Virus record (IMG/VR): IMGVR_UViG_3300037011_001068
Location: 41,757-105,756 of that record
Strand: one strand, 5' to 3'
Source of the DNA: a virus
DNA: 64,000 nucleotides
Each line of letters begins with the position of its first letter. Positions within the stretch are counted from its first letter, which is position 1. Below are positions 1 through 64,000 of the stretch, piece after piece. Below the pieces are notes generated by a model that saw nothing but the letters and a program-made list of their open reading frames with translations, was not told where the DNA came from and did not search any database. The position numbers and the translations under genes are program-made.

Positions 1-981
1 ATGATGCTTGTATTTTCGGATTTGCATTTGCGGGAAGAGACCGCAGAAGTTGTCTTTAAATCTGTACTTCCGGGTATCTTGCAGGCTGCAATTAAGCGTA
101 AAATCATGGTTATCGCCTGCTTGGGGGATTTTTATCATCTGCGTTACCGTATTTCTGTATTTCTGCAAAACAAGGTGGCGGAGTGGCTTCGGGAGACGGG
201 GAAGCGGGGCATTCATGTGGTGCTTCTTCCGGGGAACCATGATCAAGTGGATAGCCATGGTCGCCATGCGCTCGAGGTGTTCCGAGAATTCCCGCATGTC
301 CATGTGATCGATGAGCCGAAAAGCCGGGATGATGGGCTCTGGATTCCTTACCGGCAGGACCCGGAGGAGCTCGAGTGCGCGTTTAAGATCAAGAAGCACC
401 CTTACCAGGACCCGGTAGTGTGGATGCATCATGGGGTTCGAGGGGCGCTTATGAATGCCAGAAAGAAAGATGAAGATGGGATTGATCCGACGTTTTTTGA
501 GAAGCGTAAAGTTCAAGTGTTTTGCGGGCATTATCACAAAAGGCAGAAGGTCGGGGTGGTGCAGTACGTTGGAAGCCCCTATCAGACGCGAGCGGATGAG
601 GCGGGGGATCCCAAGGGCTTCATGATCCTTTCCAAGCAGCATGGGGTTGAATTTGTGGATACTGCTTGGGGACCTCGGTTTCATGTTTTCCGCTTTGAAG
701 CGGGGAAGCCCTTTCTCCTCGAGGGAGTGGCTCCGGGAGATGAAGTGAGGGCTGTGGCTGGCCCGGGGGTTCTGCCGGAGCAAGTAGGCCAATTTCTTCA
801 GAGTCAAGGAATCCAGAAATTTGTTGTGTCGGCGGAAATGGAGGCTTCTGGATCTCGGCTGCAGGTACGGCCCGGGGCAACAATCCTGGATTATGCTGAG
901 GCTTACGTCAGGGAATTCCGCGGGCAGTTGGATGCTTCATTTTTGATGGAGGTGTTGGAGGGATTCGCTCGTGAAATTTGA
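1..981 (+). CDS. sbcD: SbcD/Mre11-like metallophosphoesterase nuclease (T4 gp47-like)
   Basis: SDLH, GDFYH, GNHD and GHYH metallophosphoesterase motifs; adjacent to SbcC. Confidence 0.9.
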   Translation: MMLVFSDLHLREETAEVVFKSVLPGILQAAIKRKIMVIACLGDFYHLRYRISVFLQNKVAEWLRETGKRGIHVVLLPGNHDQVDSHGRHALEVFREFPHVHVIDEPKSRDDGLWIPYRQDPEELECAFKIKKHPYQDPVVWMHHGVRGALMNARKKDEDGIDPTFFEKRKVQVFCGHYHKRQKVGVVQYVGSPYQTRADEAGDPKGFMILSKQHGVEFVDTAWGPRFHVFRFEAGKPFLLEGVAPGDEVRAVAGPGVLPEQVGQFLQSQGIQKFVVSAEMEASGSRLQVRPGATILDYAEAYVREFRGQLDASFLMEVLEGFAREI

Positions 982-3010
982 ATACCTGGAGCTCGAGAAT
1001 TATGGCTCTTTTTTTGGCAAGCATCGGTTGGACCTCGCGGACCGGGGGCTTCTTCTTGTGTCTGGGGATAACCGGGATGACCCCCGCACCAGTTCCAATG
1101 GGGCGGGGAAGAGCACGATCTTCGATGCGCTCGATTGGGCCCTCTTTGGCGCGGTGCCGCGGGGGGATCGGGTGGAGTCGGTGGTCAATGCCGAGGCTTC
1201 TGAGTGTCGGGTGCGGGTCGGGATCAGGACTGATAGTGGTGAGGCTCTCGTGGTGGAGAGGACACGGGTGGAGGGGGCTACCGGGCTTGCGCTCTGGCAA
1301 GGTGGCCAGGAGGTTCGTTGTCTTGATGTCACAGAAACCCAGAACGTCCTTGAGCAGAAGCTCGGTCTTGACCGGGAGGTTTTCCACGCCGCTGTTCTCT
1401 TTTCCCAGGGCGATCTGACTCATTACGCGGATGAGACGGATGCCGGGAAGATGGACATCCTCACGCGGATTCTCCAGTTGGGTGTGATTGACCAGTTGCA
1501 GGGGGTGGCAAAGAAGCGTCTTGCCGCCTTGGAGGAAGAGCTCCTGGAAGTTGATCGGGTACTTGTGGATATCCGCGGGCAGATTTCTGGATTGGAGAGT
1601 GCTGGAGTGGCAAGCCAGGCGCAGGCCTGGGAAGAGCAGCGGCAGAAGGAGCTCGCTTTTGTCCGGGCGGAGATAGTTCGCCGGCAGCAAGCCATTCAGC
1701 AATTGCCGGTGTCCACCGGTTTGTCCGCGGGGGCCATCCGGGCGGAAATGGAGGCGCTTCAGAAATCGGGGGCAGCCTACGGTTCGCCGGAAGAGCGTTC
1801 GGCGCTTTTGGCGGCCGAGCAGGCGGTGGCGGAGTGGAAGGCGGAGCTCCGGCAGCGGGACCAGGAGATCGGGATTATCCGGGGCGAGATGGAACGGTTT
1901 CGCACTTTCAAGGGGGAGGTTTGCTCTTTATGCGGGCAGCCGGTGACGCAGGAGCATTTGGGGCGTGAGTATGCCTTGAGAGGGCAGAAGCTCCAGGGCC
2001 TCCTGCAAGCTAAGGGGGAGGCCGAGAGTACCCTGGGAGCCTGGGAAGCCCGCTTGGGGGAGCTCAAGGCTTCAGAGCAGGCAAAGAATCGAGCTTTGCA
2101 GGAGAGGATAGCAGCCGAGCGATCGAAGCTCTATGTGCTCCAGGAATCCCTCCGGAAGGCCGAGGCGCTCGAGCGTGAGGGGATTGAAGCGCAGCGAGCG
2201 TTCCAGGCAGAGCGGGACAAGGCGGAGGAGGTTTTCAGGCGGGTGAATCCTTTCCAGGCGCAGCAGGCGGAGCTCGACAAGAAGCGGCAGGAACTTGAGT
2301 GGAGGCTCAAGACTACGGAACATCTTTTGGGGCAACAGATGCTCCTGAAGGAGCATATCTTCTTTTGGGTGAAAGCCCTCGGCGCTAAGGGGCTCAAGAG
2401 TTACATCCTGGACCAACGTCTCCAGGAGCTCTCTGACGCGGTGAACGGGTGGCTGGCGCCTTTGACCGGGGGAGCTATGTGGTGTCGGTTCGATAGCACG
2501 AAGCAAACGAAGACTCGGGGCGTTCAGAATTCCCCTACTCTCCGGATTTTTCGGTGGGAGGGCGATGGAGTGGTCGCAGAGCGTGGGTACAAGAGTTGGA
2601 GCGGTGGCGAGAAACAGAGGATTTCTTTTGCCGTGGATTTTGGGCTTTCGCGGCTCCTTGCACGGCGGGCCAGAAATCAGTATGACTTGCTCATTCTTGA
2701 TGAGGTATTTAAACATCTTGATTCATCGGGGAAAGAAGCGGTAGTAGAGATGTTGCATGCTATCGCGCAGGAGAAATCGAGCGTTTTTGTTGTTGAGCAT
2801 GATCACGAGCTACAGGGGAGCTTTGAGCGTGTGATGGTGGTCCAGAAAATTAAACGTCGCAGTCAGATCAAGGAGGGATCCGATGGGATCCAGATCAAAG
2901 CGAAAAAAGCAATCAAAAGAGCGCCCGTCCACCATGTATCTGGTGAAGCCCTACCAGCGGGAAAATCTTGCAGAGCCCCCCTCCGAAGAGCACCCATTAT
3001 CGGCGGGTGA
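971..3010 (+). CDS. sbcC: SbcC/Rad50-like SMC ATPase (T4 gp46-like)
   Basis: Walker A NGAGKST, coiled coil with CSLC zinc hook, signature WSGGE, Walker B LILDE, H-loop VEH. Confidence 0.92.
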   Translation: MKFEYLELENYGSFFGKHRLDLADRGLLLVSGDNRDDPRTSSNGAGKSTIFDALDWALFGAVPRGDRVESVVNAEASECRVRVGIRTDSGEALVVERTRVEGATGLALWQGGQEVRCLDVTETQNVLEQKLGLDREVFHAAVLFSQGDLTHYADETDAGKMDILTRILQLGVIDQLQGVAKKRLAALEEELLEVDRVLVDIRGQISGLESAGVASQAQAWEEQRQKELAFVRAEIVRRQQAIQQLPVSTGLSAGAIRAEMEALQKSGAAYGSPEERSALLAAEQAVAEWKAELRQRDQEIGIIRGEMERFRTFKGEVCSLCGQPVTQEHLGREYALRGQKLQGLLQAKGEAESTLGAWEARLGELKASEQAKNRALQERIAAERSKLYVLQESLRKAEALEREGIEAQRAFQAERDKAEEVFRRVNPFQAQQAELDKKRQELEWRLKTTEHLLGQQMLLKEHIFFWVKALGAKGLKSYILDQRLQELSDAVNGWLAPLTGGAMWCRFDSTKQTKTRGVQNSPTLRIFRWEGDGVVAERGYKSWSGGEKQRISFAVDFGLSRLLARRARNQYDLLILDEVFKHLDSSGKEAVVEMLHAIAQEKSSVFVVEHDHELQGSFERVMVVQKIKRRSQIKEGSDGIQIKAKKAIKRAPVHHVSGEALPAGKSCRAPLRRAPIIGG

Positions 3011-3452
3011 GCCATTTTTCGTTCGCGGTGAGATCGATGGGGCTATTATTGTGAGCGTACCAGAGACTATCAGTAGGTCTTCCGCGGAAAATCTTCATAA
3101 GGCGTTTGCAGACACTTTTCCGGGGAAGCCTGTTCTTGTCCTCACACACAACGTACAATTTCTTGAATTGCGAAGGCTCACCGAGCAGGAGGAACAAAAG
3201 GTCAGGGCTTTCGTCCAAAGGAGCAACTCTGATGCCAGAGGGCTTGAAAAGAACGCCGATTCCCCTGCAGAAAAAGGATTGGGCGCTCAATCCGTCTCAA
3301 GTGGTGCTGGGGATAGACCCGGGCTTCGGGTCGTTGGGGATGGCGGTTTTGGAGGCGGAGCCCGGGAAGAAGCCTCGAACATTAGCAGCGCGCGTGGTGA
3401 GCACGGCGAGGGCGAGCAAGAAGCAAATCAAGGATTTTCGGGTAACGAATGA
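2883..3452 (+). CDS. hypothetical protein overlapping both neighbours
   Basis: AGGAGG RBS before ATG; globular middle with low-complexity ends in the overlaps. Confidence 0.55.
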   Translation: MGSRSKRKKQSKERPSTMYLVKPYQRENLAEPPSEEHPLSAGEPFFVRGEIDGAIIVSVPETISRSSAENLHKAFADTFPGKPVLVLTHNVQFLELRRLTEQEEQKVRAFVQRSNSDARGLEKNADSPAEKGLGAQSVSSGAGDRPGLRVVGDGGFGGGAREEASNISSARGEHGEGEQEANQGFSGNE

Positions 3453-3891
3453 TGATCAGCGGCGTGTTTCTGAAATTTACTATGCGTTAGAGGGTGTCTA
3501 CAGCGAATTTCACCCCGGTTCTGTTGGCGTGGAAGCGTATAACCCTTTTCGGAAGATGGGAAAGGGCGCTGGACCTCGGCAAAGCACAATTTCTGGATGG
3601 AAGGCGGGTGGTATTTATTTTGGCGTGAATTTTTGGGCTTTATCCCGGCATCTTCTCATTACGGCATTTTTGCCGATGGATCTGAAAAAGAGATTTTGTG
3701 GGAAAATTTCCGCGTCAAAAGAAGAGGTGGAGAAGGCGCTTTACAGCCAGGTGGATGGGCTTTACCCTGTGATCCAGCAATTGCCGGTGACCAAGCGGGA
3801 GCACGCAGCAGATGCCGCGGGGCATGCTGTTCTCGTCCTGGAAGAGGTGTGGCGCATGCGGCAAATGCTTGGTTTAGGAGGTGCCGAGTGA
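3232..3891 (+). CDS. ruvC: RuvC-like Holliday junction resolvase
   Basis: VLGIDPG, GVEAY, ASKEEV and EHAADA motifs; start moved to ATG 3232 behind AAGGAG. Confidence 0.87.
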   Translation: MPEGLKRTPIPLQKKDWALNPSQVVLGIDPGFGSLGMAVLEAEPGKKPRTLAARVVSTARASKKQIKDFRVTNDDQRRVSEIYYALEGVYSEFHPGSVGVEAYNPFRKMGKGAGPRQSTISGWKAGGIYFGVNFWALSRHLLITAFLPMDLKKRFCGKISASKEEVEKALYSQVDGLYPVIQQLPVTKREHAADAAGHAVLVLEEVWRMRQMLGLGGAE

Positions 3892-4217: not shown

Positions 4218-4950
4218 GGCAGCTCCCAGAGTCACTCTGGCGCCGGATGCGGTGCTCGAGGCACGCCGGATAACACGGGGCACTCAAGAGCAGCCGGAGT
4301 GGGTGCTGGATGGGACCTCGGAGAATCCAGAGGATTCGATTTCCACCGCCTGGCTGCGGCAGCTTGCGGGGATCCAATATTCTACTTCGCAGGCGGGAAT
4401 CACCGTGCCGGAAATGAGTCGTATGCCTCCGTTTGACCATGTGTCGATTCGGACGCTCGAGGGATGGTGCGCGTATGATCATTGGGAGGATAAGCGGAAA
4501 GAGTATTTTGCTCGGCTGCGAGATCAAATTGAGCAGCGGCTCGCAGCGTCAGTGGTGGAGACGCGTGTCCAGCATTTGCAGCGAATCGACAGCATTGCCG
4601 AAGCCATTATAGCTGACATTGAGAGCAAAGAGGTTGGTTACAAGAGCAGGGAAGGCATGATCACGGCTCTAGTAAAATTGCTGGAGGTTGGGGATCGCAT
4701 GCGTGAAAAGGTTGCTGCTCGGATAGCTCCTAAGCTCGATTGTGCGGGTGTCCTCACCCTCACAGCAGAGCTTTCCGAAGATGAAGCTCGTGCTGCAGCC
4801 AAGTTGATTATGAAGACTCGGCGAGAGAAGCTTCGGGCGGGGTTACCTAGTCCAGAAATTCGAGAGCAGGATTCTGGGGAACCAGGCCGTTCTAAAATGA
4901 TCCGTCGTCCGGTATGCGATGGTAAGAATAATGGCGAAACGGTGGAGTAA
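4159..4950 (+). CDS. HTH-containing helical protein, possible terminase small subunit
   Basis: VSIRTLEGW..DHWEDKRKEY HTH-like segment followed by helices, as in some TerS; function is inference. Confidence 0.45.
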   Translation: MLTEETKPRRRRPIHPPKAKAAPRVTLAPDAVLEARRITRGTQEQPEWVLDGTSENPEDSISTAWLRQLAGIQYSTSQAGITVPEMSRMPPFDHVSIRTLEGWCAYDHWEDKRKEYFARLRDQIEQRLAASVVETRVQHLQRIDSIAEAIIADIESKEVGYKSREGMITALVKLLEVGDRMREKVAARIAPKLDCAGVLTLTAELSEDEARAAAKLIMKTRREKLRAGLPSPEIREQDSGEPGRSKMIRRPVCDGKNNGETVE

Positions 4951-9871: not shown

Positions 9872-9924
9872 CCCTTCTCCTTTTAAATCTTTCCAGAAAG
9901 TCCAGAAATACGTTAAATAGGGGT

Positions 9925-10909: not shown

Positions 10910-10939
10910 GTTGATCCAGAAATTTGAAGGAGGTAGCAA

Positions 10940-11068: not shown

Positions 11069-11479
11069 ATGGCAGCCGAGGCGCTTGAAAAAATAGATGC
11101 TTCTTTGCGAGTGCTTGAAGAGTGCGTGATTTATCGTTGGGCTGAGATAGAAGGGCTTATCATAGAGGATCTAAGGCGCCAGGGGCTCTCTCTGCTACCT
11201 GGCTCGTTTTTTATCATGCAGGGATACCAGCAGATTATGGCGATGGTGGCTCCTACGGATCAGCTTAAGGTTAAGGCTATAGATCGGATGCAGGGTATGA
11301 GTGTGATTGCAAGTCCAGAAATTGGGTTGGAGGCTTTGCATGCGGAGCAGGCAACTCCGTTGACGGCAGAAGAGCTGGCGGATGGTCGAAGTGAGGATGA
11401 AATGAAGCGTGTAGAAGAGCTGGCGAATTTATTCTGGGATCCAGAAATGAAGGGAGGAGGCTCCTTTGAAAAATCGTAG
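11069..11479 (+). CDS. hypothetical protein
   Basis: GAGG RBS, 136 aa. Confidence 0.65.
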   Translation: MAAEALEKIDASLRVLEECVIYRWAEIEGLIIEDLRRQGLSLLPGSFFIMQGYQQIMAMVAPTDQLKVKAIDRMQGMSVIASPEIGLEALHAEQATPLTAEELADGRSEDEMKRVEELANLFWDPEMKGGGSFEKS

Positions 11480-11921
11480 TCAGGAGGCTTGTGAAGTATG
11501 TGGAATCGATCTTTTGTCGAATGAAAAAAAGAAGTGCTGCATGTGCCGGCGTGGAGACTCCTACCCACCCGTCATAAAGCCGCTAGTGAATGTTACAGGG
11601 CATTTTTCCCTGCAATTTGAGCTACAGGTGCCTGATGGTGTGGACGATGAGACGATCCAGCAAATCATCGAAGCGCGTCTCTGCGAGGAGTGGGTGGAAT
11701 TGCCGAGGGGTGGCGCTTTTGGTTCAGCGAGGCTCCATGTTTTTCGGCAGGATCCATTTTTGCTGGTGTTGGGTGAGGATGGACGGATGGAGAAGCCGAA
11801 AATATGGGAGGATTGCCGATATAGCCGAGCGGTGAAGCGGGCGGTAGCGCTCTACATGTGGGGGCCTACGTCAGAGGGGATATCGGCGTCTGGAGATCAA
11901 TCCAGCAATTTGGAAAAATAG
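11466..11921 (+). CDS. hypothetical protein with N-terminal zinc ribbon
   Basis: CEVC..CCMC; GGAGG RBS. Confidence 0.55.
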   Translation: MKNRSQEACEVCGIDLLSNEKKKCCMCRRGDSYPPVIKPLVNVTGHFSLQFELQVPDGVDDETIQQIIEARLCEEWVELPRGGAFGSARLHVFRQDPFLLVLGEDGRMEKPKIWEDCRYSRAVKRAVALYMWGPTSEGISASGDQSSNLEK

Positions 11922-11963
11922 GATTGGTTGAGTGGAAAGTAATTTCTGGATCGAGGTTGTAGG

Positions 11964-12277: not shown

Positions 12278-12303
12278 TCCAGCAATTCAGAAAGGGGCAG
12301 TAC

Positions 12304-12573
12304 ATGGAGTTTATTCGTTGTTTTAGGGTAGTTCCTTGAGGGCTCGAGCCGTTCGAGGCTGTGGAGGAGGATGCGGAATTCGGCTGTGAGGGGGTGATCG
12401 ATGATGGGGCTCCTGCGGATCTGATAATTCTTGAACGACCCGTTAATGGGAATATTTGGGAAGAGATATCGAGGAAGGAATTTCTGAATCCGAAAGAGGC
12501 CAGCTATTTTTTAATAGAGCTCGTTGCTGGCAAGCGCCTTTGGGAAGATCAATCCAGCAATTTGAAAAAATAG
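12304..12573 (+). pseudogene. hypothetical gene with in-frame TGA at 12337
   Basis: RBS and ATG 12304 in frame with ORF 12361-12573, separated by one TGA. Confidence 0.4.
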
Positions 12574-12777: not shown

Positions 12778-12805
12778 TCCAGCAATTTTTACCTAGGAGG
12801 CGATT

Positions 12806-13141
12806 ATGGAAGAGCGGAAAAAGGGTTCGTTGACTGAAGCTGGGGTTTTTCGGATTTTGCGGGATAAGGGTTTGTTGGTTGAAGCCAAAGATTCGCGGAT
12901 TCCATGGGACGGGGAACTATTGATTGAAGCCAAAGCTGCTTGGATTTTGCATGACAGGGATGTTTTAAATTGGCGGGGCAAGCTTGCGCGGAGGCTGCAG
13001 TATTTTTTAAAGGAAAATGCCGGGGTGAAAATCAGCTACCGCATGGCGGTGCAAGCGCTAGGATCTGTCTTTGGGCTGGACCAGTATTTAAGGAAGGCGA
13101 TTATTGATCGTCTTCACGAGGCTAAGAAATCCAGCAATTAG
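12806..13141 (+). CDS. hypothetical protein
   Basis: AGGAGG RBS. Confidence 0.7.
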   Translation: MEERKKGSLTEAGVFRILRDKGLLVEAKDSRIPWDGELLIEAKAAWILHDRDVLNWRGKLARRLQYFLKENAGVKISYRMAVQALGSVFGLDQYLRKAIIDRLHEAKKSSN

Positions 13142-13383: not shown

Positions 13384-13451
13384 AGAAAAAGAATCCAGCA
13401 ATTGAATTTTCTAAATCAGGAGTGTGGTCGAATTTTCGATCGGAAGGTGCG

Positions 13452-13892: not shown

Positions 13893-14125
13893 GGGAGGAG
13901 TGTGCTGTGGAAGAAAGAAATCCAGAAATTGAGGTAGCGACCGAAGGGAAGAAGCTGCGGACATGCTTTTTGTGCAAGGTGGAAAAGCCTCTCGCTGAAT
14001 ATTATTCCCGCGCGGGGGCGCGGTACGCTTACAGCGTGTGGTGTAAGAGCTGCAGGCGCGTGAAGGCAGTAGAGTGCGTGAGGCATTTGCGGTTGACCAA
14101 AGAGGAGGTGCTCGAATGGACGTGA
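13889..14125 (+). CDS. zinc-finger protein (like HNH/EndoVII N-terminal fingers)
   Basis: RTCFLCKVEKPLAEY..WCKSC. Confidence 0.65.
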   Translation: MREECAVEERNPEIEVATEGKKLRTCFLCKVEKPLAEYYSRAGARYAYSVWCKSCRRVKAVECVRHLRLTKEEVLEWT

Positions 14126-14607: not shown

Positions 14608-14855
14608 GGTTCACGATTGATGTGGTGGCGAAGTGCTCAGCGTGCGGGGGGCTCATGGAGGTTCGGGACATGCAGCCGGATATTCAGGGGTGCGCGGTGT
14701 TCACGGTGGACAATTGCCAGGTGTGCCGAATCGCGCTGGAAAAAGAGACACGCGAAGGTGTTATCCAGAAATTTTTTGGTCGTAGGTCTAAGGCTTTGAC
14801 TAAGGTCTCAACGAAATGCGGTAAGAAGCGGGGAACCAAGCGAGCGAAAGGATAA
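14604..14855 (+). CDS. small zinc-ribbon protein
   Basis: CSACGG..CQVC; GGAGG RBS. Confidence 0.6.
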   Translation: MRFTIDVVAKCSACGGLMEVRDMQPDIQGCAVFTVDNCQVCRIALEKETREGVIQKFFGRRSKALTKVSTKCGKKRGTKRAKG

Positions 14856-15308: not shown

Positions 15309-15964
15309 GTGACAACGGGGATAAATTGCTGGATTCAGAGATCAAGCTTGAGCCTGCGGTGCTGACAAAAGACGGGGGCGTGACGGTTGAGTACATTTAC
15401 GAGCGGACTTGGACGGCGCTTAATCGTCTGCGGTCATGGGCTCAGATGATCTCTTGTAAATTGCGCCCCCCTGATAAGGAGGGCAGCGATAAAATTTGTG
15501 ACGGCATGGAAGATTTTTCGTATATACAAGATTCCATTGATGCGCTTGCATTATGGGATATTTTTGCTGAGCTCCGTATACATGAGTGTCGTTCTGGGGT
15601 TGTGTGGAAGAAAAAAGTGGAAGGTGAGGAAGAGCGAATTTCCGCTGGGGCTATGGAAAGGCGCATTTCCGAGCTTGCGGCCAAAGGCCCTTGTTCCGAT
15701 TTTCTCAGATTCGATCTTGAGCAGGAATTTTGGCAGAAAATCCTTGGTGGGGAAGCGGCCGCGGAATCGGTGCTTCGGGTGTCACGAGCGGCAGTGGACT
15801 TTCGATTTGCCATTGAGGCGCTTTGTGCGTCTTCGCGGGAGCGCTCTCTTGCGATTACTAAGCTCGAGGAGGCGGTTTTGTGGGCGCGAGAATACGTGCT
15901 CAAGCGGGCATTGCAGGAGGCTTCATGCGGGGTGCTTCGTGGTCTATCTTCCCAGAAAAAGTGA
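15305..15964 (+). CDS. protein with C-terminal Acb2/Tad1-like helical hairpin
   Basis: C-terminal SRERSLAITKLEEAVLWA resembles Acb2/Tad1 sponge proteins. Confidence 0.55.
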   Translation: MSDNGDKLLDSEIKLEPAVLTKDGGVTVEYIYERTWTALNRLRSWAQMISCKLRPPDKEGSDKICDGMEDFSYIQDSIDALALWDIFAELRIHECRSGVVWKKKVEGEEERISAGAMERRISELAAKGPCSDFLRFDLEQEFWQKILGGEAAAESVLRVSRAAVDFRFAIEALCASSRERSLAITKLEEAVLWAREYVLKRALQEASCGVLRGLSSQKK

Positions 15965-16000
15965 GTGGTTCTCTTCGATTGCAATCCAGAAATTTCGGGG

Positions 16001-20644: not shown

Positions 20645-20668
20645 GATTACTCCTTTCAGTGGTACAGT

Positions 20669-46100: not shown

Positions 46101-49100
46101 AATATTACAGTCAAAGGAATGAGTTTAGGGCAGGAAAAGAAGCCTGCTCCGGATAACTTTGAGACCATGCCGGAAGGGTTGCCTACTGAATTTAAACCAA
46201 ATAAATGGAAAAATTCTCAAAAAATAGTAAATGCTCTTTTGCTCGCTCCTCTTGATACTAAGCTTGAAACGAGTAAGTATATCGCTACGCTTGTTCCTAC
46301 ACTGGGTGGAGGAAATGTTTGGTATATAAAATATAAAGATGCTGCTTACGGAGAGGATGTTACAAGTTCCCATTCTTCGATGGCATGGGATATTTCTATT
46401 CTTAAAGAACCTATGAAAGTTATTCTTCCGGAAAAAGTAGAAGAGCTTCCTGAATTGAAGACCATGGAAGAAAAACAAAATTTTTGGAAAGATCAACCAT
46501 GGGGTGGAACGTTGGAAGTTTGGTCTGTAAATCCTTCTGGAGATCTTTTTTCTTATGCACCGCTCGGGACCGCTATTGCCGCTCCAAAGCCGGGGGATGC
46601 TTCAGGCATGGCTTTAACAATTTGGCATAAAGGTAAAGGTGACCACTGGTATACTATAGGTTATGCAATAAGCTCACAGGCACTTTCTACACTACTCCAA
46701 CCTATTGTAAAAGCAAAAAAGAAGGCTCTCATCCTAAAAGGAGCTCCTGCTATTGCTGGCCTTATTAAAGATTGGCCCAATATTCAGAACATCACGCAAG
46801 ACATTCCAATCAAGAATCCCTCGAAAATATTTCCAGGATTTTTGAGTGTAGCTCCTTTGGGAGCTCGCCTTACTTCTTATAAGCTCTCTACTGGCGGGAA
46901 AGTGGAGAGTCAGATGTTTGTAAAAGAAGATGGGGAAAATTGGAAAAATATCTTTACGCAAGATATTATAAATAACTATTTTGTAACTCAGCTCATGAAT
47001 ACGCAGGATGAAGTTTTTATTTATCTAGGAGGTATTCCTGGGAGCACTCCAAAGCCAACAATAAAAAAACTTGTACCTAAGCTCGTGCATGCCAAGGATG
47101 CAATAAAAATGCATGAGGCAATCAAAGCTTCAGGTGGTACGCTCAAGATCAAACCTAACTCCACTGATTCAACGGTGGCCTATGTTTGTTTGGACAACGT
47201 GATAGAGGGAGATGCGGCAAAAATACTGAATTCTGCGCTTTTGGAATTAAACCTTTCCCAGCATGTCTTGAATTTTCAGCAGTATCCTAAAACGAATAAA
47301 TTCGGTGCTTTTGTGGCGATTCCTTTTTCCCATCTAGAAAATCCCGTGGAGATACAGGTGGAGGAGGGTGAACAAGTTCCTTCTGAACCGCCTGATCAAG
47401 TGGAGGAAAAGCCCCAGAAAAAAAAGCCTAAGAAGCTCTCCAAAAAAGAAATCCAGAAAATGGCTGCAGCAAAGCAAAAAATCGAAGAGCAGAAGGTATG
47501 GGCAATAGCGCACCCGACGGTGAAGGATCCAGAAACCTTCCTTCTCCTCGCGCACTTCCAGAAGCACATGGATAAGTGGTTTTCTGAAAGTCCCTGGTAT
47601 GCGCGGGTGGAAAACGAAGGGGAGACCATCTTCCTGCAGCCGAAGAGCTTCCCTGAAGATTTTCCGGCGGTCATGAAAAAGCAGTTCCCTCTTGCGGAAC
47701 AGGTGGAGACCATCCATGGGCCCATGATGCGGGTCTCTCTCCAGTCGCTCCGGGATCGCTATCCCGAGGCGCTCCCCGTAAAAGGCCCGGATGGTAAGCT
47801 CTATCCTGTGGGGACCACTTTCCAGACTGAAAAGACTTCGGTGACCGTGGGGGACCTTTTAAAAACCGAGCCTGGATTCCATAGCATGGTCCCGCATACC
47901 TCTATGCCGGATTACATGGTGCTCAAAGTGGCTGGAACGGGAGCGAGCCAAAAAGAGCAGCTACATGCTATCGTCCAGAAATTTGGGTTACACCCACTTT
48001 TCACAGAGCCGAAACAAACATCGAGCTCCTGGATGCATTATTTTCTCAAGAAAGAGATCGATAATTCATGGAAAGAGGAGGAGAAGCTCGTGGTGCTCCC
48101 TGGGGAATCCCCCTCTCCCCTTCGCCTGGCTCCTTTGCCCTCGGGGACGACCACCACGGAGCATTGGGGGGAAGTGGGGGATAATCGTGCGGAGCTCGGG
48201 TTGTTGGAAGCTGTGAAAATTCCTTTGTACGGACACGTAATTCGGATTGGCAAACCGGGGATACTGACAGATTTTCAGGTGAACATCCGAAAAGTGAAGA
48301 CCCTTTCAGGGGATCTTGTTTACGAGGTGACAGGAGATCTTCTCGAGTTCAAGGCTCAGTCCAGCAAATTGAATCCTACCTCTAGTATTCCTCTGACTTC
48401 GGCAGCTTCGCAATTGTTCGCGCCTTTGGGAAAATTAAAGACCATTGAATACGATGCAGAGACCGGGGTGCATGACGAAAGCAAGAGCCCTGGGGAGATC
48501 ATGAGCCTCTCTGGTTTTCAAGGAACCGTGCGTGATGGAAAAACCGTGGTCCAGGTGATTCAAGATCCTTCTCAGCAAACCATGAATGGCACTTTCAAGG
48601 TGCGAATCCCGGTGGGGGATAATGTGGAGGAAGCACTCGGCGAAGCTTTTGAAGCGATGGGTTACAACGCCGCGGAGGCACTCTCCCCTATCGATGAAAA
48701 AAGCGATCGGATTTTTAAAAAGTGGTCTATCCTTCGCTCGACATTAGGACCATTGGCTTTTGGGCAGTCCGATGCTGCTATACCACGGAAGCAGCGGCAT
48801 GATGAGAAGTACCTGGATACACAACTTGATAAACTCGGCGTCCAGAAATTGGTTCCTACCGCGAAGGTACAGCGGATTTTTCAAAGCAAAGTCACGGTAA
48901 CGGTAGCGGGTGAAGAGCATTTCAAGGAGCATTGGTCTTGCCCTTATGTGGGAACAAAATTTCCTTCCGTCATAATTCAGCTCGCGCAGGGTGCTGGGTG
49001 GGCAAGTCGAAAAGAGCGTTATCTGAAGGGTGTAGATACGGATGGAAAAAGTAAAGGTGAGGATTTTCAGACTGGCGGGGCTGCGGGTGTTTTTTGCCGT

Positions 49101-50189: not shown

Positions 50190-51047
50190 ATGGAAGGTGA
50201 GCTCCCGTTCGATGTCGAATTTCCCTTCTCCGTTTTTGAAAAAGCGGATGAAGAGCCAGGGAAGAGAAAACGAATCGGCGGTATTGCCTCGATCGAGACC
50301 CGGGACCGGCAGGAGGAGACCGTTCTTCAGAGAGGTTTGGATTTTTCAGATTTCGCGAAAAATGGTTGGTTCAACGATAATCACTCCAAAGATACCGCGG
50401 GAGTCGTAGGATATCCCGATGGATCTACTGAATTTTTTCGCAAAGGTCAGCGATTACCTAGCGGAGAAATCGCGAAAGCTTCCGGGCATTGGGTGGAGGG
50501 TTATTTGCTGGATACTCCGCGGGCCAATGCGATCTGGGAGCTCGGAAAAGCACTCCAGAAAACGCAACGTCGGCTTGGTCTTTCGGTGGAGGGAAAAATT
50601 CTGCAAAGAACCGGGCCACAGTTAAAGACGATTGCGAAGGCCCTGGTCCGAAATGTGGCTATCACGAATTGCCCCGTAAATACTTCCGCGCGCATGGAAA
50701 TTCTGGCTAAGAGCCTTAAAGCCGCGGAGCAATGCGAAAGCGATCTGGCCAAGACCCTGGGTATGGGTGTTCCAGCAATTGGGGCTGGGGGCGGAGTGGT
50801 TCCACCGGCCAGCATGGGGCCTCAAACGGGTATGGGTGCAGGGCAGGTGATTGCCCGGGAATCGCTCGAGAGCAAGCAGCACCCGCCAAAGAAGATCGGA
50901 AAGAAAAAAAAGATTAAATTCCGGAAGTCTTTTTCGCATATCGAAGCGATCCATTGGCTTCGCGCTCAACTTCCGCATGCTTCGGCGGAACAAATCGAGC
51001 GCTTGCTAGAAACCACCCGGCGACTAAAAAGCGCTGGAAAACTGTAA
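50190..51047 (+). CDS. prohead protease
   Basis: IGGIAS..RDRQEE.V, FNDNH, LGLSVEG, NVAITNCPVN. Confidence 0.9.
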   Translation: MEGELPFDVEFPFSVFEKADEEPGKRKRIGGIASIETRDRQEETVLQRGLDFSDFAKNGWFNDNHSKDTAGVVGYPDGSTEFFRKGQRLPSGEIAKASGHWVEGYLLDTPRANAIWELGKALQKTQRRLGLSVEGKILQRTGPQLKTIAKALVRNVAITNCPVNTSARMEILAKSLKAAEQCESDLAKTLGMGVPAIGAGGGVVPPASMGPQTGMGAGQVIARESLESKQHPPKKIGKKKKIKFRKSFSHIEAIHWLRAQLPHASAEQIERLLETTRRLKSAGKL

Positions 51048-54743: not shown

Positions 54744-55073
54744 ATGGGTAAGAAAAACGCGAAAGATTTTGTTCCTTTTTGTGCAGATCAGGGGATTCCC
54801 ACTTTAGCTGGTGCGGCAAAAGCCGGCGTGTCGGTCCAGCATTTCCCAGGGGTGGTCATGACCAGCGATGGCGTCTACACCTTCGCAGGCCTCGGTGGGT
54901 CGAATATGGCGGACACGAATTATTCCTTGTTCGTGATCAATCAAACCGATTCCACGGACCCAGGAAAAGCATCGGTCAAAGCGGTGACCGGGTTCACAAT
55001 TGCTGGACCGGACACTTCAGATGTTTTGGATATCCTCGTGATCGGGGCTCTCAAAGGGCAGGTTACCGAGTAG
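54744..55073 (+). CDS. virion structural protein
   Basis: beta-rich; structural module. Confidence 0.6.
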   Translation: MGKKNAKDFVPFCADQGIPTLAGAAKAGVSVQHFPGVVMTSDGVYTFAGLGGSNMADTNYSLFVINQTDSTDPGKASVKAVTGFTIAGPDTSDVLDILVIGALKGQVTE

Positions 55074-56023: not shown

Positions 56024-56482
56024 ATGAAACGAAAACCGAAAACAGCTCCGAAGCAAGAAGCTGAAAAAAATGTGGATGGGAATTTGGAGGTTCCAATTCC
56101 TGAATCTGGTGCGTTGGAGGGCTTGCCAGATCCAGCAATTCCCGCGGGGGCTCCTGAAGGAATGCCGCATGCGGAAGGGGGCATCCTCGATCCTTTGCTG
56201 GTGACTCGGTTGGCACTTCTCCAGGAACGTATTGTGCGTTTAAACGCACAAAATACAGGCTACAATTTACTTTTTGAAGCTAAGAGAAAGGAGCTCGAGG
56301 AGGCTCGAAATACCACGATGACTCAGATCAAACGGGATCTGGTGATCGCAGAGGGGGAGTATCGAGAAATTCAAAGGCAAATCGAAAAAAAGCATCAGAT
56401 CAATTTGAAGGATTTCACCTTTGATGCGGATACCGGGCGGTTAAATCGCGTTGTGGAAGTAAAACCCGAGGAGTCTTCTTAA
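56024..56482 (+). CDS. coiled-coil protein (possible fibre chaperone)
   Basis: AAGGAG RBS; long helix. Confidence 0.6.
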   Translation: MKRKPKTAPKQEAEKNVDGNLEVPIPESGALEGLPDPAIPAGAPEGMPHAEGGILDPLLVTRLALLQERIVRLNAQNTGYNLLFEAKRKELEEARNTTMTQIKRDLVIAEGEYREIQRQIEKKHQINLKDFTFDADTGRLNRVVEVKPEESS

Positions 56483-59599: not shown

Positions 59600-60645
59600 T
59601 GTCTTTGACAAAGTATACATTTTCGATCAATGACGATTTTCTAAATCACGCGGTAGCTCCCGATCGATTGCTTCAAGAAATTCGAGCAAGTTCCATTGTT
59701 ACGTCACTTGATTGCATCAATACTGAGGGAGATTCTTGTGATATATGGTTCAAAGCTGAACTTTCGCCAACTGACAGTGGTCTACTAAACGGTCTTGTCG
59801 CAGTGCACTCCGGAGAGCCTCTTGCTCCTGGACCGATAGAAATCAGTACGTCCGAAATGTTACCCGTACAAATCAAGGATCCCATTCCCCCTGGCCGACG
59901 AGAGAATCACTACTCCCATAACTTCTGCAAGAAAGAGACATGGTGGCAGGATTCTGAGCGCACAGTAAATGAAGTGCTCACAGACAATGGAGACCACAAA
60001 ACCTTTCATCCAGCAATTGCTCGGCATTGGATTGACGTGACGCATGGGAAGATTTTTTCAGAGCAGAGTATTCAGAGCACGTATCAACCTGTGGTCAAGG
60101 TGGATGGGGAGGTAGTGGCGGAGCATTCTCCTGGTACGACGGATGGAGATTACGCTATTGACTACACCACCGGATCGGTGACGTTCATTTCAGAGCAAAT
60201 GGGCGTAGTGACAGCGAGCTACAGTTTTGCGCGTTCTAGCTTATTTAAAGTGCAGCATTCGGAAGGAGCGTGCGTTCGAGTGGCCTACGTCGAAGTGACT
60301 TTTTCAAAAGACATAGGCTTAAAAGATAATGTCTGGTTTCAACTTTGGGGAAACATTGGCGCGGGCATGCAAGCGCTTTCTAATCCAGAAATTTACCGGA
60401 CGTGGGATGATTTTGTTCGAGATTCCATGGGAGGCGTGATGGAAGTTCCATGTCCTACCGGAACGGGGGAAGCTTGGCGCATGACAGCAATTCCTCGGTA
60501 CAAGCTTCGGTTCGACTATCGAGATCTTGCGGGGATTGATTTAGATCCGGATTTATCTCTAGAAATTCGGATGTGGCTAGAGCACGATACTCCCATAGAA
60601 GGAGAGCTCGCGCATGCTACCATTTTCGCTAGAAAGGAGATTTAA
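59599..60645 (+). CDS. hypothetical virion protein
   Basis: DYAIDYTTGSVTF motif. Confidence 0.65.
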   Translation: MSLTKYTFSINDDFLNHAVAPDRLLQEIRASSIVTSLDCINTEGDSCDIWFKAELSPTDSGLLNGLVAVHSGEPLAPGPIEISTSEMLPVQIKDPIPPGRRENHYSHNFCKKETWWQDSERTVNEVLTDNGDHKTFHPAIARHWIDVTHGKIFSEQSIQSTYQPVVKVDGEVVAEHSPGTTDGDYAIDYTTGSVTFISEQMGVVTASYSFARSSLFKVQHSEGACVRVAYVEVTFSKDIGLKDNVWFQLWGNIGAGMQALSNPEIYRTWDDFVRDSMGGVMEVPCPTGTGEAWRMTAIPRYKLRFDYRDLAGIDLDPDLSLEIRMWLEHDTPIEGELAHATIFARKEI

Positions 60646-61582: not shown

Positions 61583-61828
61583 ATGCCCGTGCAGCTACTC
61601 CATAATCAGGTGATCGAGCTTCTGGACCCCCTCCCGGATGGTGTGGTCCAAGAATTCAGTACATCCAGAAATTTTAAGCCAGGAACGGTCTCTGTTTGGC
61701 TGAACGGCATGCGGCTCATCCAAGAGTACGAGGATGGTTTTCTCGAAATTGGAAACCGGTACATCCGCTTGAAGGAGATTCCTCGCCCCGGGGATTGCCT
61801 CCAAGCGCAGTACGAGGCAGAGACGTGA
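61583..61828 (+). CDS. small structural protein
   Basis: DG...F..VWLNG..P..GD.LQ..Y, similar to next gene. Confidence 0.65.
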   Translation: MPVQLLHNQVIELLDPLPDGVVQEFSTSRNFKPGTVSVWLNGMRLIQEYEDGFLEIGNRYIRLKEIPRPGDCLQAQYEAET

Positions 61829-63289: not shown

Positions 63290-63292
63290 ACC

Positions 63293-64000
63293 ATGACTAT
63301 GCCGACTCATCCAGCTTATCCGGAGTTTGGCCATCCTCAGATGAAGAAGTCGGGGAGGATTGATTTTCGCGTTCAGGAATACGATAAAGTCATCGAAAAT
63401 AAGGGTTACTTGCTGGCTTGGGAACGTGCTTCCATTTGTCCCTGCCGGCCTGTCTCCACTCAGACCGAGCAGCCAGATCCAAGTTGCCCTCTGTGCAAAG
63501 GAGGGGGCTGGTACTATTTTGGGGGGGACACCCCGACTGATCCAGAAAAAATTGGTGTTCTGGATGAAGTCCAGAAATTGCTCATTTCCCACAACAACGC
63601 CATGGTGATTCGTGGAGTTATCTCTTCTATCCAGGCCACTTTGAATCCCTGGGATAAGCTTGGAAATTGGATGGCTGGAACGATGCAGGTTACCGTGCGA
63701 GCGCATAACTACCTTGCGTACTACGACAAGCTCATCTCCTTGGATTCTGAAATCGTATATTCAGAGCTTGTGATCTACAAAGGAGGGAATGAGCTCACGC
63801 TTCGCTATCTCGCAACGGGGATTAATCAGATCCGGAGTCAGACGAAAGCTTTCATGCCGGATGCGGACTATTATCTAGATCAAGGCAAGGTGAAATTCTA
63901 TCCAGGAAAAGCGCCGGGAGTTAGCACACGCCTTGGAATCCATTATCTCTGCCATCCGACATGGCTTGTCGTGGAATACCCGCATTTGTTACGCGGAAAA
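63293..64000 (+). CDS. head completion/neck protein, truncated by window end
   Basis: WERASICPC..PDPSCPLCKGGGWYY; no stop seen before 64000. Confidence 0.7.
   Translation, partial: MTMPTHPAYPEFGHPQMKKSGRIDFRVQEYDKVIENKGYLLAWERASICPCRPVSTQTEQPDPSCPLCKGGGWYYFGGDTPTDPEKIGVLDEVQKLLISHNNAMVIRGVISSIQATLNPWDKLGNWMAGTMQVTVRAHNYLAYYDKLISLDSEIVYSELVIYKGGNELTLRYLATGINQIRSQTKAFMPDADYYLDQGKVKFYPGKAPGVSTRLGIHYLCHPTWLVVEYPHLLRGK

What the first reader, a model, noticed from the sequence alone, without database searches (positions are those of the whole stretch)
812..63579. Strongly over-represented, strand-polarised 10-mer TCCAG(A/C)AATT
Seen: exact + strand copies start at 812, 3773, 4851, 10915, 11314, 11901, 12278, 12553, 12778, 13130, 13394, 13921, 14764, 15985, 22539, 23040, 27205, 27745, 30266, 31369, 34463, 35340, 38461, 43426, 47974, 48841, 50771, 56131, 60009, 60384, 61664 and 63570. 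Only 11941 and 26299 were noticed on -, and near-matches are common. Equal-base expectation is about 0.1 per strand. It is read in all three frames (IQKF/IQQL, PEI/PAI, SSN/SRN) and lies between genes, so it is a nucleic-acid signal rather than codon bias. Inference: binding site for a genome-organising protein, a KOPS/Chi-like directional signal for translocation, packaging or ejection, or an mRNA motif.
Basis: seen in the sequence. Interest (0 to 1): 0.88.

Follow-up and report, generated by a model that had tools for sequence, protein, structure and literature searches.

The report
Phage-private dispersed DNA signature word
This uncultivated 106-kb sediment phage writes one short DNA word (TCCAG-A/C-AATT) into nearly every place its genes allow, on both strands; its relatives each keep their own version, so an unidentified factor probably reads the word on the DNA.

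Summary
The window holds 42 exact copies (32 +, 10 -; shuffles give 0.7). The whole 105,756-bp phage genome holds 64 (44 +, 20 -). The conserved core TCCAGMAA occurs 139 times.

Enrichment survives codon-preserving nulls. The 10-mer sits at 36 of 49 (+) and 17 of 43 (-) places where the protein sequence permits it, so both strands are under selection. An mRNA motif, codon bias and a strict KOPS/Chi-like polarity do not fit.

Relatives carry dialects:
- TTCCAGAAA, about 110 copies, with no strand bias
- the palindrome TCCGGA, 319 sites
- TCCAGCAAT, weaker

One relative has no enriched word at all. Sites turn over quickly (6 of 74 are shared by position) while density is kept.

The parA promoter carries three phased copies of the core. 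However, a complete relative without ParA or the RHH protein keeps the word, so the par protein is not the primary reader.

Best reading, at moderate confidence: landing sites on duplex DNA for an unidentified phage-encoded protein, acting through the number of sites rather than their position. Primase, Chi-like, packaging and restriction-linked readings remain open.

This scan has noted comparable phage-private words in other phages.

The parts
812..821 (+). exact copy TCCAGAAATT, inside Mre11-like phosphoesterase gene
3773..3782 (+). exact copy TCCAGCAATT, inside RuvC-like gene
4851..4860 (+). exact copy TCCAGAAATT, inside gene
10915..10924 (+). exact copy, intergenic, just upstream of a Shine-Dalgarno plus ATG
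11314..11323 (+). exact copy, inside small gene
11901..11910 (+). exact copy TCCAGCAATT at the end of a small gene (small-gene array)
12278..12287 (+). exact copy, intergenic, small-gene array
12553..12562 (+). exact copy at a gene end, small-gene array
12778..12787 (+). exact copy directly after a stop codon, 19 nt before the next start
13130..13139 (+). exact copy at a gene end, small-gene array
13394..13403 (+). exact copy, intergenic
13921..13930 (+). exact copy, intergenic
14764..14773 (+). exact copy, inside small gene
15985..15994 (+). exact copy, intergenic, next to a promoter-like site
22539..22548 (+). exact copy, inside large terminase gene
23040..23049 (+). exact copy, inside large terminase gene
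27205..27214 (+). exact copy, inside 2068-aa gene
27745..27754 (+). exact copy, inside 2068-aa gene
30266..30275 (+). exact copy, inside 2068-aa gene
31369..31378 (+). exact copy, inside 2068-aa gene
34463..34472 (+). exact copy, inside 1136-aa gene
35340..35349 (+). exact copy, inside 1136-aa gene
38461..38470 (+). exact copy, inside 1450-aa gene; core kept at the same place in relative G002
43426..43435 (+). exact copy, inside 2116-aa gene
47974..47983 (+). exact copy, inside 2116-aa gene
48841..48850 (+). exact copy, inside 2116-aa gene
50771..50780 (+). exact copy, inside head protease gene
56131..56140 (+). exact copy, inside gene
60009..60018 (+). exact copy, inside gene
60384..60393 (+). 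exact copy, inside gene
61664..61673 (+). exact copy, inside gene
63570..63579 (+). exact copy, inside gene
3588..3597 (-). exact copy on the - strand, antisense inside a + gene
4676..4685 (-). exact copy on the - strand, antisense inside a + gene
11941..11950 (-). exact copy on the - strand, intergenic, convergent with the copy at 11901
15324..15333 (-). exact copy on the - strand, inside Acb2/Tad1-like gene
16502..16511 (-). exact copy on the - strand, intergenic
22264..22273 (-). exact copy on the - strand, inside PHP-domain gene
26299..26308 (-). exact copy on the - strand, inside 2068-aa gene
32578..32587 (-). exact copy on the - strand, inside portal gene
41896..41905 (-). exact copy on the - strand, inside 1450-aa gene
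54998..55007 (-). exact copy on the - strand, inside gene
20668..20700 (.). parA promoter/operator: AAATCCAG twice in tandem (8-bp phase), then TATT, then the inverted CTGGATTT; three copies of the word's core 22-55 nt upstream of the parA start
   Evidence: homologous par cassettes carry 8-bp unit arrays at the same place
20006..20647 (-). small ParA ATPase (213 aa), start of the only credible - strand operon
19713..20009 (-). ribbon-helix-helix (ParG/omega/Arc-like) protein downstream of parA
9892..9909 (+). intergenic tandem pair TCCAGAAAG TCCAGAAAT (9-bp spacing)

Best explanation
The word is a signature private to this phage clade. It is read on double-stranded DNA by a sequence-specific factor that the phages most probably encode themselves, probably a dimer. 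It works through the number of sites, not their position. The most likely use is a genome-wide function of a temperate phage. Candidates are silencing or immunity in the prophage state, in the manner of stoperators, or marking phage DNA as self for a DNA-handling machine. Shown: the word is selected at the DNA level on both strands; its density is conserved while positions turn over; relatives have dialects; one sister genome has none. In this phage the par operator re-uses the same core. Partition-gene control, and possibly the RHH protein, are therefore tied to the word secondarily.
For: 1. Selection is at the DNA level on both strands. Synonymous shuffling removes the coding copies. The 10-mer fills 36/49 (+) and 17/43 (-) synonymous opportunities, and the 8-mer 75/191 and 45/195. 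In the complete relative G214, TTCCAGAAA fills 43/48 and 48/68. In the related G215 the figures are 0/40 and 1/50, a natural negative control.
2. Function depends on density, not position. Spacing is random (CV about 1) and even along genes. Only 6/74 sites are shared by position with G214, at 54% nucleotide identity. 8/39 are shared with G002, four of them on the - strand. There is no preferred pair spacing.
3. Dialects exist within one syntenic clade (59 shared proteins with G214). G000 and G002 have TCCAGMAATT. G214, G216 and L015 have TTCCAGAAA (112 and 105 copies against 2.8 expected). G218 has TTCCGGAA, with TCCGGA at 319 sites. G217 has TCCAGCAAT. G215 has none.
4. Most dialects are quasi-palindromic or palindromic (TTCC|RGAA). 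In G214 the centre must be CA/TG (63+72 copies, other centres 0-4). This fits a dimer reading duplex DNA better than a reader of single strands.
5. No host-level signal was found. The only bacterial genome with a related head module has 13 copies in 4.3 Mb. Genomes of its phylum (201 searched) hold 0-106 copies each.
6. The lifestyle is temperate. This phage has ParA plus an RHH protein, and G216 is classed as a provirus.
Against: No reader has been identified. Pfam and PHROGs scans of about 90 proteins found no HTH repressor, no ParB and no methyltransferase. No gene is present only in word-bearing genomes apart from fast-evolving structural genes. Stoperators sit mostly between genes and in one orientation; here 88% of sites lie inside genes and both orientations occur. 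The recurrent sigma-70-like early promoters carry a different palindrome, so a classical repressor, if present, probably has another operator. The host is unknown, so a host-encoded reader is not excluded. This genome's own dialect is the least palindromic. Its 73% versus 40% occupancy shows an orientation effect that a symmetric duplex reader does not explain.
Confidence: 0.35

Rival explanations
1. Distributed centromere or omega-like regulon. The ParG/omega-like RHH protein of the parA-RHH cassette binds the dispersed copies, making the plasmid-prophage 'holocentric' or globally regulated.
For: Three phased copies of the core sit 22-55 nt upstream of parA. About 45 homologous ParA cassettes from metagenomes all have an RHH gene downstream and 8-bp unit arrays upstream. 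The closest of them have units ACAGAAAC or ACAGAAGA, which share CAGAA with TCCAGAAA. The tandem TCCAGAAATCCAGAA recurs three times in the genome.
Against: The complete relative G214 has no ParA P-loop in any of six frames. A profile built from 27 par-linked RHH proteins finds no such protein in G214 or G215, and G000's ParA and RHH find no match in G214, G216, G217 or G218. Yet G214 and G216 carry the word at higher density. RHH dimers normally need at least two adjacent units, whereas the dispersed sites are single. In related cassettes the units lie in arrays at promoters, not inside genes. The cassette shares nothing else with those elements, so it is a mobile module.
Confidence: 0.12
2. 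Priming sites. The phage's own zinc-finger/TOPRIM primase, encoded next to a DnaB-like helicase, starts lagging-strand primers at the word.
For: A primase gene lies at genome 31483-32496, with a CxxC...CxxC motif and an EGxxD motif. Sites on both strands at a spacing of about 1-2 kb per strand match Okazaki-fragment scale. The complement of the word contains 5'-CTG-3', the E. coli DnaG site (from established knowledge). Long primase sites have a precedent in the NrS-1 primase-polymerase, whose site is 8 nt (PMC8718748). More distant relatives carry a different word, GATTGTCG, which contains the T7-type primase site TTGTC (the T7 site is from established knowledge).
Against: DnaG/T7-type primases read 3-5 nt. 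G215 has the same primase (44% identity, zinc finger intact) but no enriched word. Word presence is patchy across the primase similarity order. Spacing is random, not regular. The palindromic dialects are unexpected for a single-strand reader, and CTG becomes CCG in G218.
Confidence: 0.12
3. A host-read, Chi-like signal that tames a RecBCD/AddAB-type nuclease entering at DNA ends.
For: The word is a sharp 8-mer core that is independent of position and beneficial in proportion to its number. Chi-rich phages are documented: LLS has 23 Chi sites, one per 1.86 kb, and the Pseudomonas phage MD8 has 32 (PMC12315714).
Against: Documented Chi-rich phages lack their own recombination module and have Chi almost entirely in one orientation (PMC12315714). 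This phage encodes RecA-like, Mre11/Rad50-like and RuvC-like proteins, and both orientations are selected. Occupancy of 70-90% of opportunities and palindromic dialects are unlike Chi. No candidate host genome shows strong enrichment: 1 to 3.7 times a reversed-word control.
Confidence: 0.1
4. A self-recognition word for packaging, with the logic of an uptake sequence. The terminase or small-terminase-like protein starts packaging at any copy, so phage DNA is chosen over host DNA.
For: The statistical signature matches that of DUS/USS: an exact 9-12-mer about once per kb, on both strands, in all frames, with lineage dialects. The large terminase is 851 aa with an unexplained N-terminal stretch of about 380 aa. 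No canonical small terminase sits beside it. A weak small-terminase-like protein lies at window 4159-4950.
Against: Phages offer no precedent. The small-terminase assignment is weak (E = 2e-6). Nothing links the word to the terminase.
Confidence: 0.1
5. The word is tied to a restriction-modification-type site. Either it is the acceptor site of an unrecognised sequence-specific DNA modification or nicking enzyme, or it results from a repair-driven molecular drive around TCCGGA.
For: TCCGGA, one transition from TCCAGA, is wholly absent from G215 and G217. My arithmetic from base composition expects about 27 and 37 sites. The same hexamer occurs at 319 sites in G218. The only word-free genome, G215, is the only one with an N6/N4 methyltransferase. 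Sharp, short, partly palindromic words are typical of such enzymes.
Against: No methyltransferase (PF01555, PF00145) is found in the word-bearing genomes. Mutation pressure from about 50 TCCGGA sites cannot produce 40-fold enrichment of a 9-mer with defined flanks. Restriction normally drives avoidance, not enrichment. TCCGGA is not avoided in this genome: 34 sites in the window against 22.7 expected.
Confidence: 0.1
6. A signal at the RNA level or for transcription: an mRNA motif, a phage promoter, or a processing site.
For: In the small-gene array at window 10.9-16 kb the word lies 14-54 nt upstream of start codons, before the Shine-Dalgarno sequence.
Against: 88% of the TCCAGMAA core copies lie inside genes. 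Copies on the - strand are strongly selected although almost nothing is transcribed from that strand. There is no flanking conservation. G214 is strand-symmetric.
Confidence: 0.03

Closest known systems
Stoperators of Cluster A mycobacteriophages (L5 gp71-type repressor sites; PMC6550527, PMC9283540)
   Same: An asymmetric short word, with one degenerate position, scattered over a temperate phage genome. Relatives have similar but not identical versions. Some of those phages use parABS for prophage inheritance.
   Different: Stoperators number about 25-35 per 50 kb, are 13 bp long, predominantly face one way relative to transcription, and double as the operator of the early promoter. Here there are 64-139 sites, 88% inside genes, both orientations are selected, no repressor is identified, and the early promoters carry another palindrome.
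DNA uptake sequences (Neisseria DUS, Pasteurellaceae USS)
   Same: An exact 9-12-mer about once per kb, on both strands, inside genes in all frames, with sharp borders and lineage 'dialects' around a constant core. Function depends on density rather than position.
   Different: Those are chromosomal signals of competent bacteria, read by the uptake machinery. Here the word is private to a phage clade and was not found at such density in any bacterial genome searched.
Chi-rich phages (E. coli phage LLS, Pseudomonas phage MD8; PMC12315714, PMC3784561)
   Same: Phage genomes that have accumulated an 8-mer far beyond chance, at about one per 1-2 kb.
   Different: Those words are the host's Chi and lie almost entirely in one orientation, in phages without their own recombination genes. 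This phage has RecA-like, Mre11/Rad50-like and RuvC-like genes, uses both orientations, and shows no known match to a host.
Type Ib partition operators and centromeres (TP228 ParG/parH, pSM19035 omega heptads)
   Same: The parA-RHH cassette of this phage has phased 8-bp units upstream of parA, as homologous cassettes do, and the unit equals the core of the dispersed word.
   Different: Known systems use arrays at a few promoters. The dispersed single copies here do not depend on the cassette, since relatives lack it.
Chromosome-wide site sets of Noc, SlmA, MatP and KorB
   Same: Tens of dispersed sites that let one protein act on a whole replicon.
   Different: Those sites are 12-16-bp palindromes, 12-70 per replicon, and are not written into every available codon context. 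No ParB-type domain is present here.
Primase recognition sites (T7 gp4 (G/T)(G/T)GTC; NrS-1 primase-polymerase TTTGGTTA, PMC8718748)
   Same: Sites needed all over both strands. The phage has its own zinc-finger primase.
   Different: Known DnaG/T7-type sites are 3-5 nt and are not enriched. A sister phage with the same primase has no word.

Membership tests
Stoperator network (Cluster A mycobacteriophage type) | A short asymmetric site repeated 20 or more times across a temperate phage genome | tested here: met
   64 exact 10-mers and 139 core 8-mers. Temperate markers: ParA plus RHH here, and G216 classed as a provirus.
Stoperator network (Cluster A mycobacteriophage type) | Sites predominantly in one orientation relative to transcription | tested here: not met
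   44:20 here, 78:70 in G214, and the - strand copies are selected.
Stoperator network (Cluster A mycobacteriophage type) | The same site serves as operator of the early lytic promoter, and a cognate immunity repressor is encoded | tested here: inconclusive
   Recurrent sigma-70-like promoters carry AGGCAATTTGCCT, not the word. No HTH repressor was found by Pfam or PHROGs in the proteins scanned.
DNA uptake sequence (DUS/USS) | An exact 9-12-mer about once per kb, on both strands, in genes in all frames, with dialects | tested here: met
DNA uptake sequence (DUS/USS) | The same word saturates the host chromosome and is read by its competence machinery | tested here: inconclusive
   The host is unknown. 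Genomes of the phylum of the only bacterial relative (201 searched) hold 0-106 copies each, far below DUS density.
Chi (RecBCD/AddAB regulatory sequence) in Chi-rich phages | Strong single-orientation bias relative to the free DNA end | tested here: not met
   2.2:1 here and 1:1 in G214 and G216. For comparison, 20:3 and 32:0 in LLS and MD8 (PMC12315714).
Chi (RecBCD/AddAB regulatory sequence) in Chi-rich phages | The phage lacks its own recombination module | tested here: not met
   RecA-like, Mre11/Rad50-like and RuvC-like genes are present.
Chi (RecBCD/AddAB regulatory sequence) in Chi-rich phages | The word is the host's Chi | not testable with these tools
   No host genome has been identified.
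Type Ib par centromere/operator (ParG, omega) | Small ParA followed by an RHH gene, with phased short repeats upstream of parA | tested here: met
Type Ib par centromere/operator (ParG, omega) | The dispersed word exists because of, and travels with, the cassette | tested here: not met
   G214 has no ParA P-loop and no par-type RHH, and G000's ParA and RHH find no match in G214 or G216, yet both keep about 105-112 copies of TTCCAGAAA.
KOPS / architecture-imparting skewed words | Orientation follows the replichore with a strong (over 80%) skew | tested here: not met
   The skew is 69% here and 52% in G214. Local bias largely follows coding opportunity.
Primase recognition site | The word co-occurs with the primase that would read it | tested here: inconclusive
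   All relatives have the zinc-finger/TOPRIM primase. G215, L137 and L141 have no word.
Restriction-modification recognition site | A cognate methyltransferase or nuclease is encoded, or the site is avoided | tested here: inconclusive
   No PF01555 or PF00145 methyltransferase in word-bearing genomes. The neighbouring palindrome TCCGGA is totally avoided in G215 and G217 and enriched in G218.

The most novel reading that the evidence does not exclude
These phages carry a genomic 'identity code'. A short word is driven to near-saturation, filling up to 90% of synonymous opportunities, and is read by an as yet unknown phage machine to tell its own DNA from other DNA, for packaging, replication, protection or silencing. 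The code evolves in dialects. One dialect equals the Type II restriction site TCCGGA, which sister phages purge completely, suggesting that host restriction forces dialect shifts. Together with the other phage-private words this scan has noted, that would be a general and undescribed layer of phage genome organisation.
Probability: 0.25. Interest if true: 0.9.

Novelty: new variant of a known kind. Interest (0 to 1): 0.78.

Why it matters
A 9-10-bp word filling 40-90% of all places where the proteins allow it implies strong, continuing selection, or a molecular drive, acting on about 100-300 sites per genome. No described phage system accounts for this. The clade offers an unusually clean comparative set: three dialects, one word-free sister genome, and a par cassette that re-uses the word. 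Identifying it would show whether phages use dispersed self-marks for silencing, priming, packaging or defence evasion, and whether host restriction shapes such codes. In practical terms, the word and its dialects are a sensitive marker for assigning metagenomic fragments to this clade.

Tried and rejected
- Codon or dipeptide bias: rejected by the synonymous and codon-permutation shuffles and by the opportunity analysis.
- Mobile miniature element or longer repeat: rejected. There is no conservation beyond 11 bp.
- Regular spacing or pair geometry: none. CV is about 1, and a 41-42-bp pair spacing seen four times in G000 is not reproduced in G214.
- Replichore test: not separable from transcription, because 96 of 103 genes are on +. 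Local strand bias, with - copies richer in the tail genes, largely follows coding opportunity.
- Host search: no tRNA genes. One bacterial hit, a 5-kb head-module remnant in a Latescibacterota MAG. No related portal in 208 genomes of that phylum. Relatives cannot be drawn for a virus record.
- Sequencing runs: three sediment metagenomes hold the stretch. No RNA holder is listed.
- Searches for relatives that found nothing in viral contigs: ParA, the RecA-like protein, and PolA used as a single sequence.
Its C-terminal domain is present in all relatives, including the word-free G215. Word-index homologue searches found only the protein itself or nothing. The Atlas gave no usable hit. Foldseek gave no match. 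VIA-align gave only Z of about 5, to the CcrM C-terminal and MPND domains.
- Primase structure from a single sequence: poor model, pLDDT 35. No PDB sequence match.
- ParB_N and C5 methyltransferase families: not found in five genomes.
- L014's repeated 10-mer is part of a longer coding repeat and is irrelevant.
- Look-alike stretches in earlier scan windows: none.

Full report
OBSERVATION. A pattern search finds 42 exact TCCAGMAATT in the window. Dinucleotide-preserving shuffles give a mean of 0.70 and a maximum of 6.

The window is bases 41757-105756 of a 105,756-bp virus record whose ends overlap, which indicates a complete genome. The whole genome holds 44 + and 20 - copies, and the word is its most frequent 10-mer.

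The motif is unusually sharp. Positions 1-8 (TCCAGMAA) hardly tolerate any change. Position 9 is T (64) or A (28). Position 10 is T (64) or C (14). The base before the word is a purine. Nothing further out is conserved. The core 8-mer occurs 87 times on + and 52 times on -.

NOT CODON BIAS, NOT RNA. A simple gene call gives 103 genes, 96 of them on +. Copies lie in all three frames (17, 16 and 4 on +), and 10 of 64 touch non-coding DNA.

Shuffling synonymous codons within genes leaves 8.4 + and 3.9 - copies. Of these, 7 and 3 are the untouched intergenic copies. Permuting codons gives about the same result.

I then counted every place where the encoded protein would allow the word by synonymous choice. 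The 10-mer is realised at 36 of 49 such places on + and 17 of 43 on -. The 8-mer is realised at 75 of 191 and 45 of 195. For example, Ile-Ser-Gly is written ATT-TCT-GGA in 12 of 18 cases.

The - strand copies lie antisense in + genes and are still strongly selected. An mRNA signal therefore cannot be the main explanation. The + orientation is favoured about two-fold, so there is some polarity, but it is not strict.

DISTRIBUTION. Spacing is random (coefficient of variation about 1). Copies are even along genes and only slightly enriched in non-coding DNA: 12% of sites against 8.6% of the sequence. The tail-gene region has more - than + copies. This mostly reflects how many opportunities its proteins offer to each orientation.

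In the array of small genes at window 10.9-16 kb the word sits at gene ends, 14-54 nt before the next start codon. The junctions share nothing beyond the word itself.

WHAT THE GENOME IS. It is a tailed phage from sediment metagenomes. Its genes include:
- tail genes
- an SF2 helicase
- a DnaB-like helicase
- a zinc-finger/TOPRIM primase
- a family A polymerase with an intein
- RecA-like, Mre11/Rad50-like and RuvC-like proteins
- a sliding clamp
- an amidase
- an ADP-ribosylglycohydrolase
- an Acb2/Tad1-like protein
- a PHP-domain protein
- an 851-aa large terminase
- portal, protease and major head protein

The only credible - strand unit is a small ParA followed by a ribbon-helix-helix (RHH) protein.

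THE PAR LEAD AND WHY IT IS NOT THE MAIN ANSWER. Earlier notes of this scan pointed to the parA upstream region. It reads AAATCCAG AAATCCAG TATT CTGGATTT: three copies of the core in 8-bp phase and inverted symmetry, 22-55 nt before the parA start.

Sixty-four ParA homologues from metagenomes were fetched. Those examined have an RHH gene downstream, with a conserved R-x-T-x-D strand, and 8-bp unit arrays upstream. In the closest ones the units are ACAGAAAC or ACAGAAGA, which share CAGAA with the word. So the parA-upstream units are very probably the RHH operator.

Three results argue against the RHH protein as the primary reader:
- Those elements share nothing else with the phage, and their units sit in arrays at promoters.
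- G214, a complete relative, has no ParA P-loop in six frames. A profile of 27 par-type RHH proteins finds only this phage's own protein among G000, G214 and G215.
- G000's ParA and RHH proteins find no match in any of the five related genomes.

The word therefore predates the cassette in this lineage, or at least exists independently of it. The cassette's operator either re-uses the resident word or resembles it because the RHH family's preference happens to be close.

RELATIVES AND DIALECTS. Searches with portal, DnaB and PolA found a syntenic clade.

| Genome | Size and status | Word and counts |
|---|---|---|
| G002 | 51-kb fragment | TCCAGMAA 47 times against 2 for a reversed control; the same 10-mer as G000 |
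| G214 | 109 kb, complete, 59 shared proteins | TTCCAGAAA 112 times against 2.8 expected; TCCAGAAA 78 + and 70 -; centre CA/TG obligatory (63+72, other centres 0-4); fills 43/48 and 48/68 opportunities |
| G216 | 97 kb, classed as provirus | TTCCAGAAA 105 times |
| L015 | 9.9-kb fragment | TTCCAGAA at 3/4 and 11/16 opportunities; its strong strand excess is explained by opportunity |
| G218 | 110 kb, terminal repeats | the palindrome TTCCGGAA 74 times against 6; the hexamer TCCGGA at 319 sites |
| G217 | 109 kb | a weaker TCCAGCAAT dialect, 15 against 0.95 |
| G215 | 85 kb, 80% complete, 40 shared proteins | no enriched word; realises 0/40 and 1/50 opportunities, a natural negative control |

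Only 6 of 74 sites of this phage are at the same place in G214, at 54% nucleotide identity. Eight of 39 are at the same place in G002. Positions therefore turn over while density is kept.

More distant PolA relatives carry a different dispersed word, ACGACAATC.

WHO READS IT. No gene is present only in word-bearing genomes apart from fast-evolving structural genes. The primase, with an intact zinc finger, and a DUF2924 protein are present in all relatives, including those without the word. No ParB domain and no C5 methyltransferase is found. The only N6/N4 methyltransferase is in the word-free G215.

The DUF2924 protein has an N-terminal Cys motif, an AT-hook-like RGRPRK and a C-terminal domain. 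It lies next to PolA and belongs to a large family with more than 1,000 relatives. Its C-terminal domain folds confidently (pLDDT 90.7). It has only weak structural neighbours, at Z of about 5: the DNA-binding C-terminal domain of CcrM and a SAND-like domain. The tool's own guidance treats scores below Z 8 as possibly only a common arrangement. It remains a candidate, but not a tested one.

HOST. The only bacterial genome with a related head module is a Latescibacterota MAG. It has the word at chance level: 13 copies in 4.3 Mb, and 150 copies of the 8-mer against 172 for the control. In 201 genomes of its phylum there are 0-106 copies per genome, at best about 3-4 times a reversed control for the 8-mer. 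Nothing like an uptake-sequence density was seen, but the true host is unknown.

WEIGHING THE MECHANISMS. Five features point to a duplex-reading, probably dimeric, phage-encoded factor whose effect grows with the number of sites:
- selection on both strands
- independence from position
- near-saturation of opportunities
- dialects that change within one clade
- quasi-palindromic or palindromic form in most dialects

I give this about 35%. Its purpose is inferred, not shown. Genome-wide silencing or immunity of a temperate phage is the closest documented analogue, namely stoperators. In those phages the sites predominantly face one way, and the phages can also carry parABS (PMC6550527, PMC9283540). 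Several defining stoperator features are not met here.

Chi-like protection is weakened. Documented Chi-rich phages lack their own recombination genes and have one-way Chi (PMC12315714).

The primase reading has attractions: the phage has its own primase, spacing is on the kb scale, and an 8-nt primase site has a precedent in NrS-1 (PMC8718748). It is weakened by the word-free relatives that have the same primase and by the palindromic dialects.

A packaging self-mark and a link to modification or restriction cannot be excluded.

A STRIKING SIDE RESULT. TCCGGA differs from TCCAGA by one transition. It is completely absent from G215 and G217, where my arithmetic from base composition expects roughly 27 and 37 sites. 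It is ten-fold enriched in G218 and slightly enriched here, with 34 sites in the window against 22.7 expected. Total absence of a 6-bp palindrome is the usual mark of Type II restriction pressure; this is established knowledge about restriction-site avoidance. This suggests that host restriction may force dialect shifts, but that is inference.

VERDICT. The feature is real, strong and selected at the DNA level. The polarity is moderate and is not conserved in relatives. Other follow-ups of this scan have described comparable phage-private words on other DNA. Those are unchecked AI notes and were used only as leads.

Noticed in passing
relatives G215 (L128-L132), G217 (L218-L223), G218 (L224-L229); window for comparison: The 6-bp palindrome TCCGGA (a BspEI/AccIII-type site) is totally absent from G215 and G217. 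It is present at 319 sites in G218 and at 34 sites in this window against 22.7 expected. This looks like restriction avoidance in two sister phages and the opposite in a third.
   Followed up: partly
window about 8150-8190, 16005-16035, 20738-20775: A recurrent sigma-70-like promoter, TTGACA...CATAnT, whose spacer holds the palindrome AGGCAATTTGCCT. It is probably the operator of a separate regulator. One copy drives the + gene that diverges from parA.
   Followed up: no
genome 38593-40386 (L003:8593-10386), outside the window: The second most over-represented word, GCTCCTCAAGCTCCT (about 24 copies, + strand only), is a tandem coding repeat inside one 597-aa gene. The repeat also contains CTTCTGGAT, a near-copy of the word's complement.
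   Followed up: partly
L142, L143, L146, L147: More distant phages, with PolA about 30% identical, carry a different dispersed word: ACGACAATC / GATTGTCG, 21-28 copies per 10-14 kb against 1-2 expected. Its complement contains the T7-type primase site TTGTC.
   Followed up: no
genome 33579-34736 (L002:15579-16736), next to PolA: A 385-aa protein with an N-terminal Cys motif (PECYG..C..C), a basic linker with an AT-hook-like RGRPRK, and a C-terminal DUF2924 domain. The family has more than 1,000 members. The domain model is confident (pLDDT 90.7), with only weak structural neighbours at Z about 5: the CcrM C-terminal DNA-binding domain and an MPND/SAND-like domain.
   Followed up: partly
G215:C1:78780-79553 (-): The only clade member without the word is the only one with an N6/N4 DNA methyltransferase (PF01555, E = 4e-34).
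   Followed up: no
window 22378-24933 and 21720-22409: The large terminase is 851 aa. Only residues about 386-791 match terminase families. A PHP-domain phosphoesterase gene overlaps its start, at the place where a small terminase is usually found.
   Followed up: no
L056-L058 and other ParA loci: In homologous ParA-RHH cassettes, arrays of 2-4 eight-bp units (ACAGAARN) abut the start codons of several neighbouring genes. This resembles an omega-like regulon.
   Followed up: partly
L002:17266-20000 (PolA): The family A DNA polymerase carries weak Hint/intein matches, below Pfam's cut-offs, in a stretch of about 150 aa that G215's polymerase lacks.
   Followed up: no
L005 (CP070677.1, 1759133-1780871): A Latescibacterota MAG chromosome holds a 5-kb remnant of this clade's head module, from protease to head proteins, with the major head protein 68% identical. 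It is the only hint of a host.
   Followed up: partly
G218 (L224-L229): G218 has a second enriched word, CCCTGAGCGAGTCC-like (13-18 copies against about 0.2-0.3 expected). G217 has AGGAGAGCGA (20 copies against 0.25), possibly a start-associated sequence.
   Followed up: no
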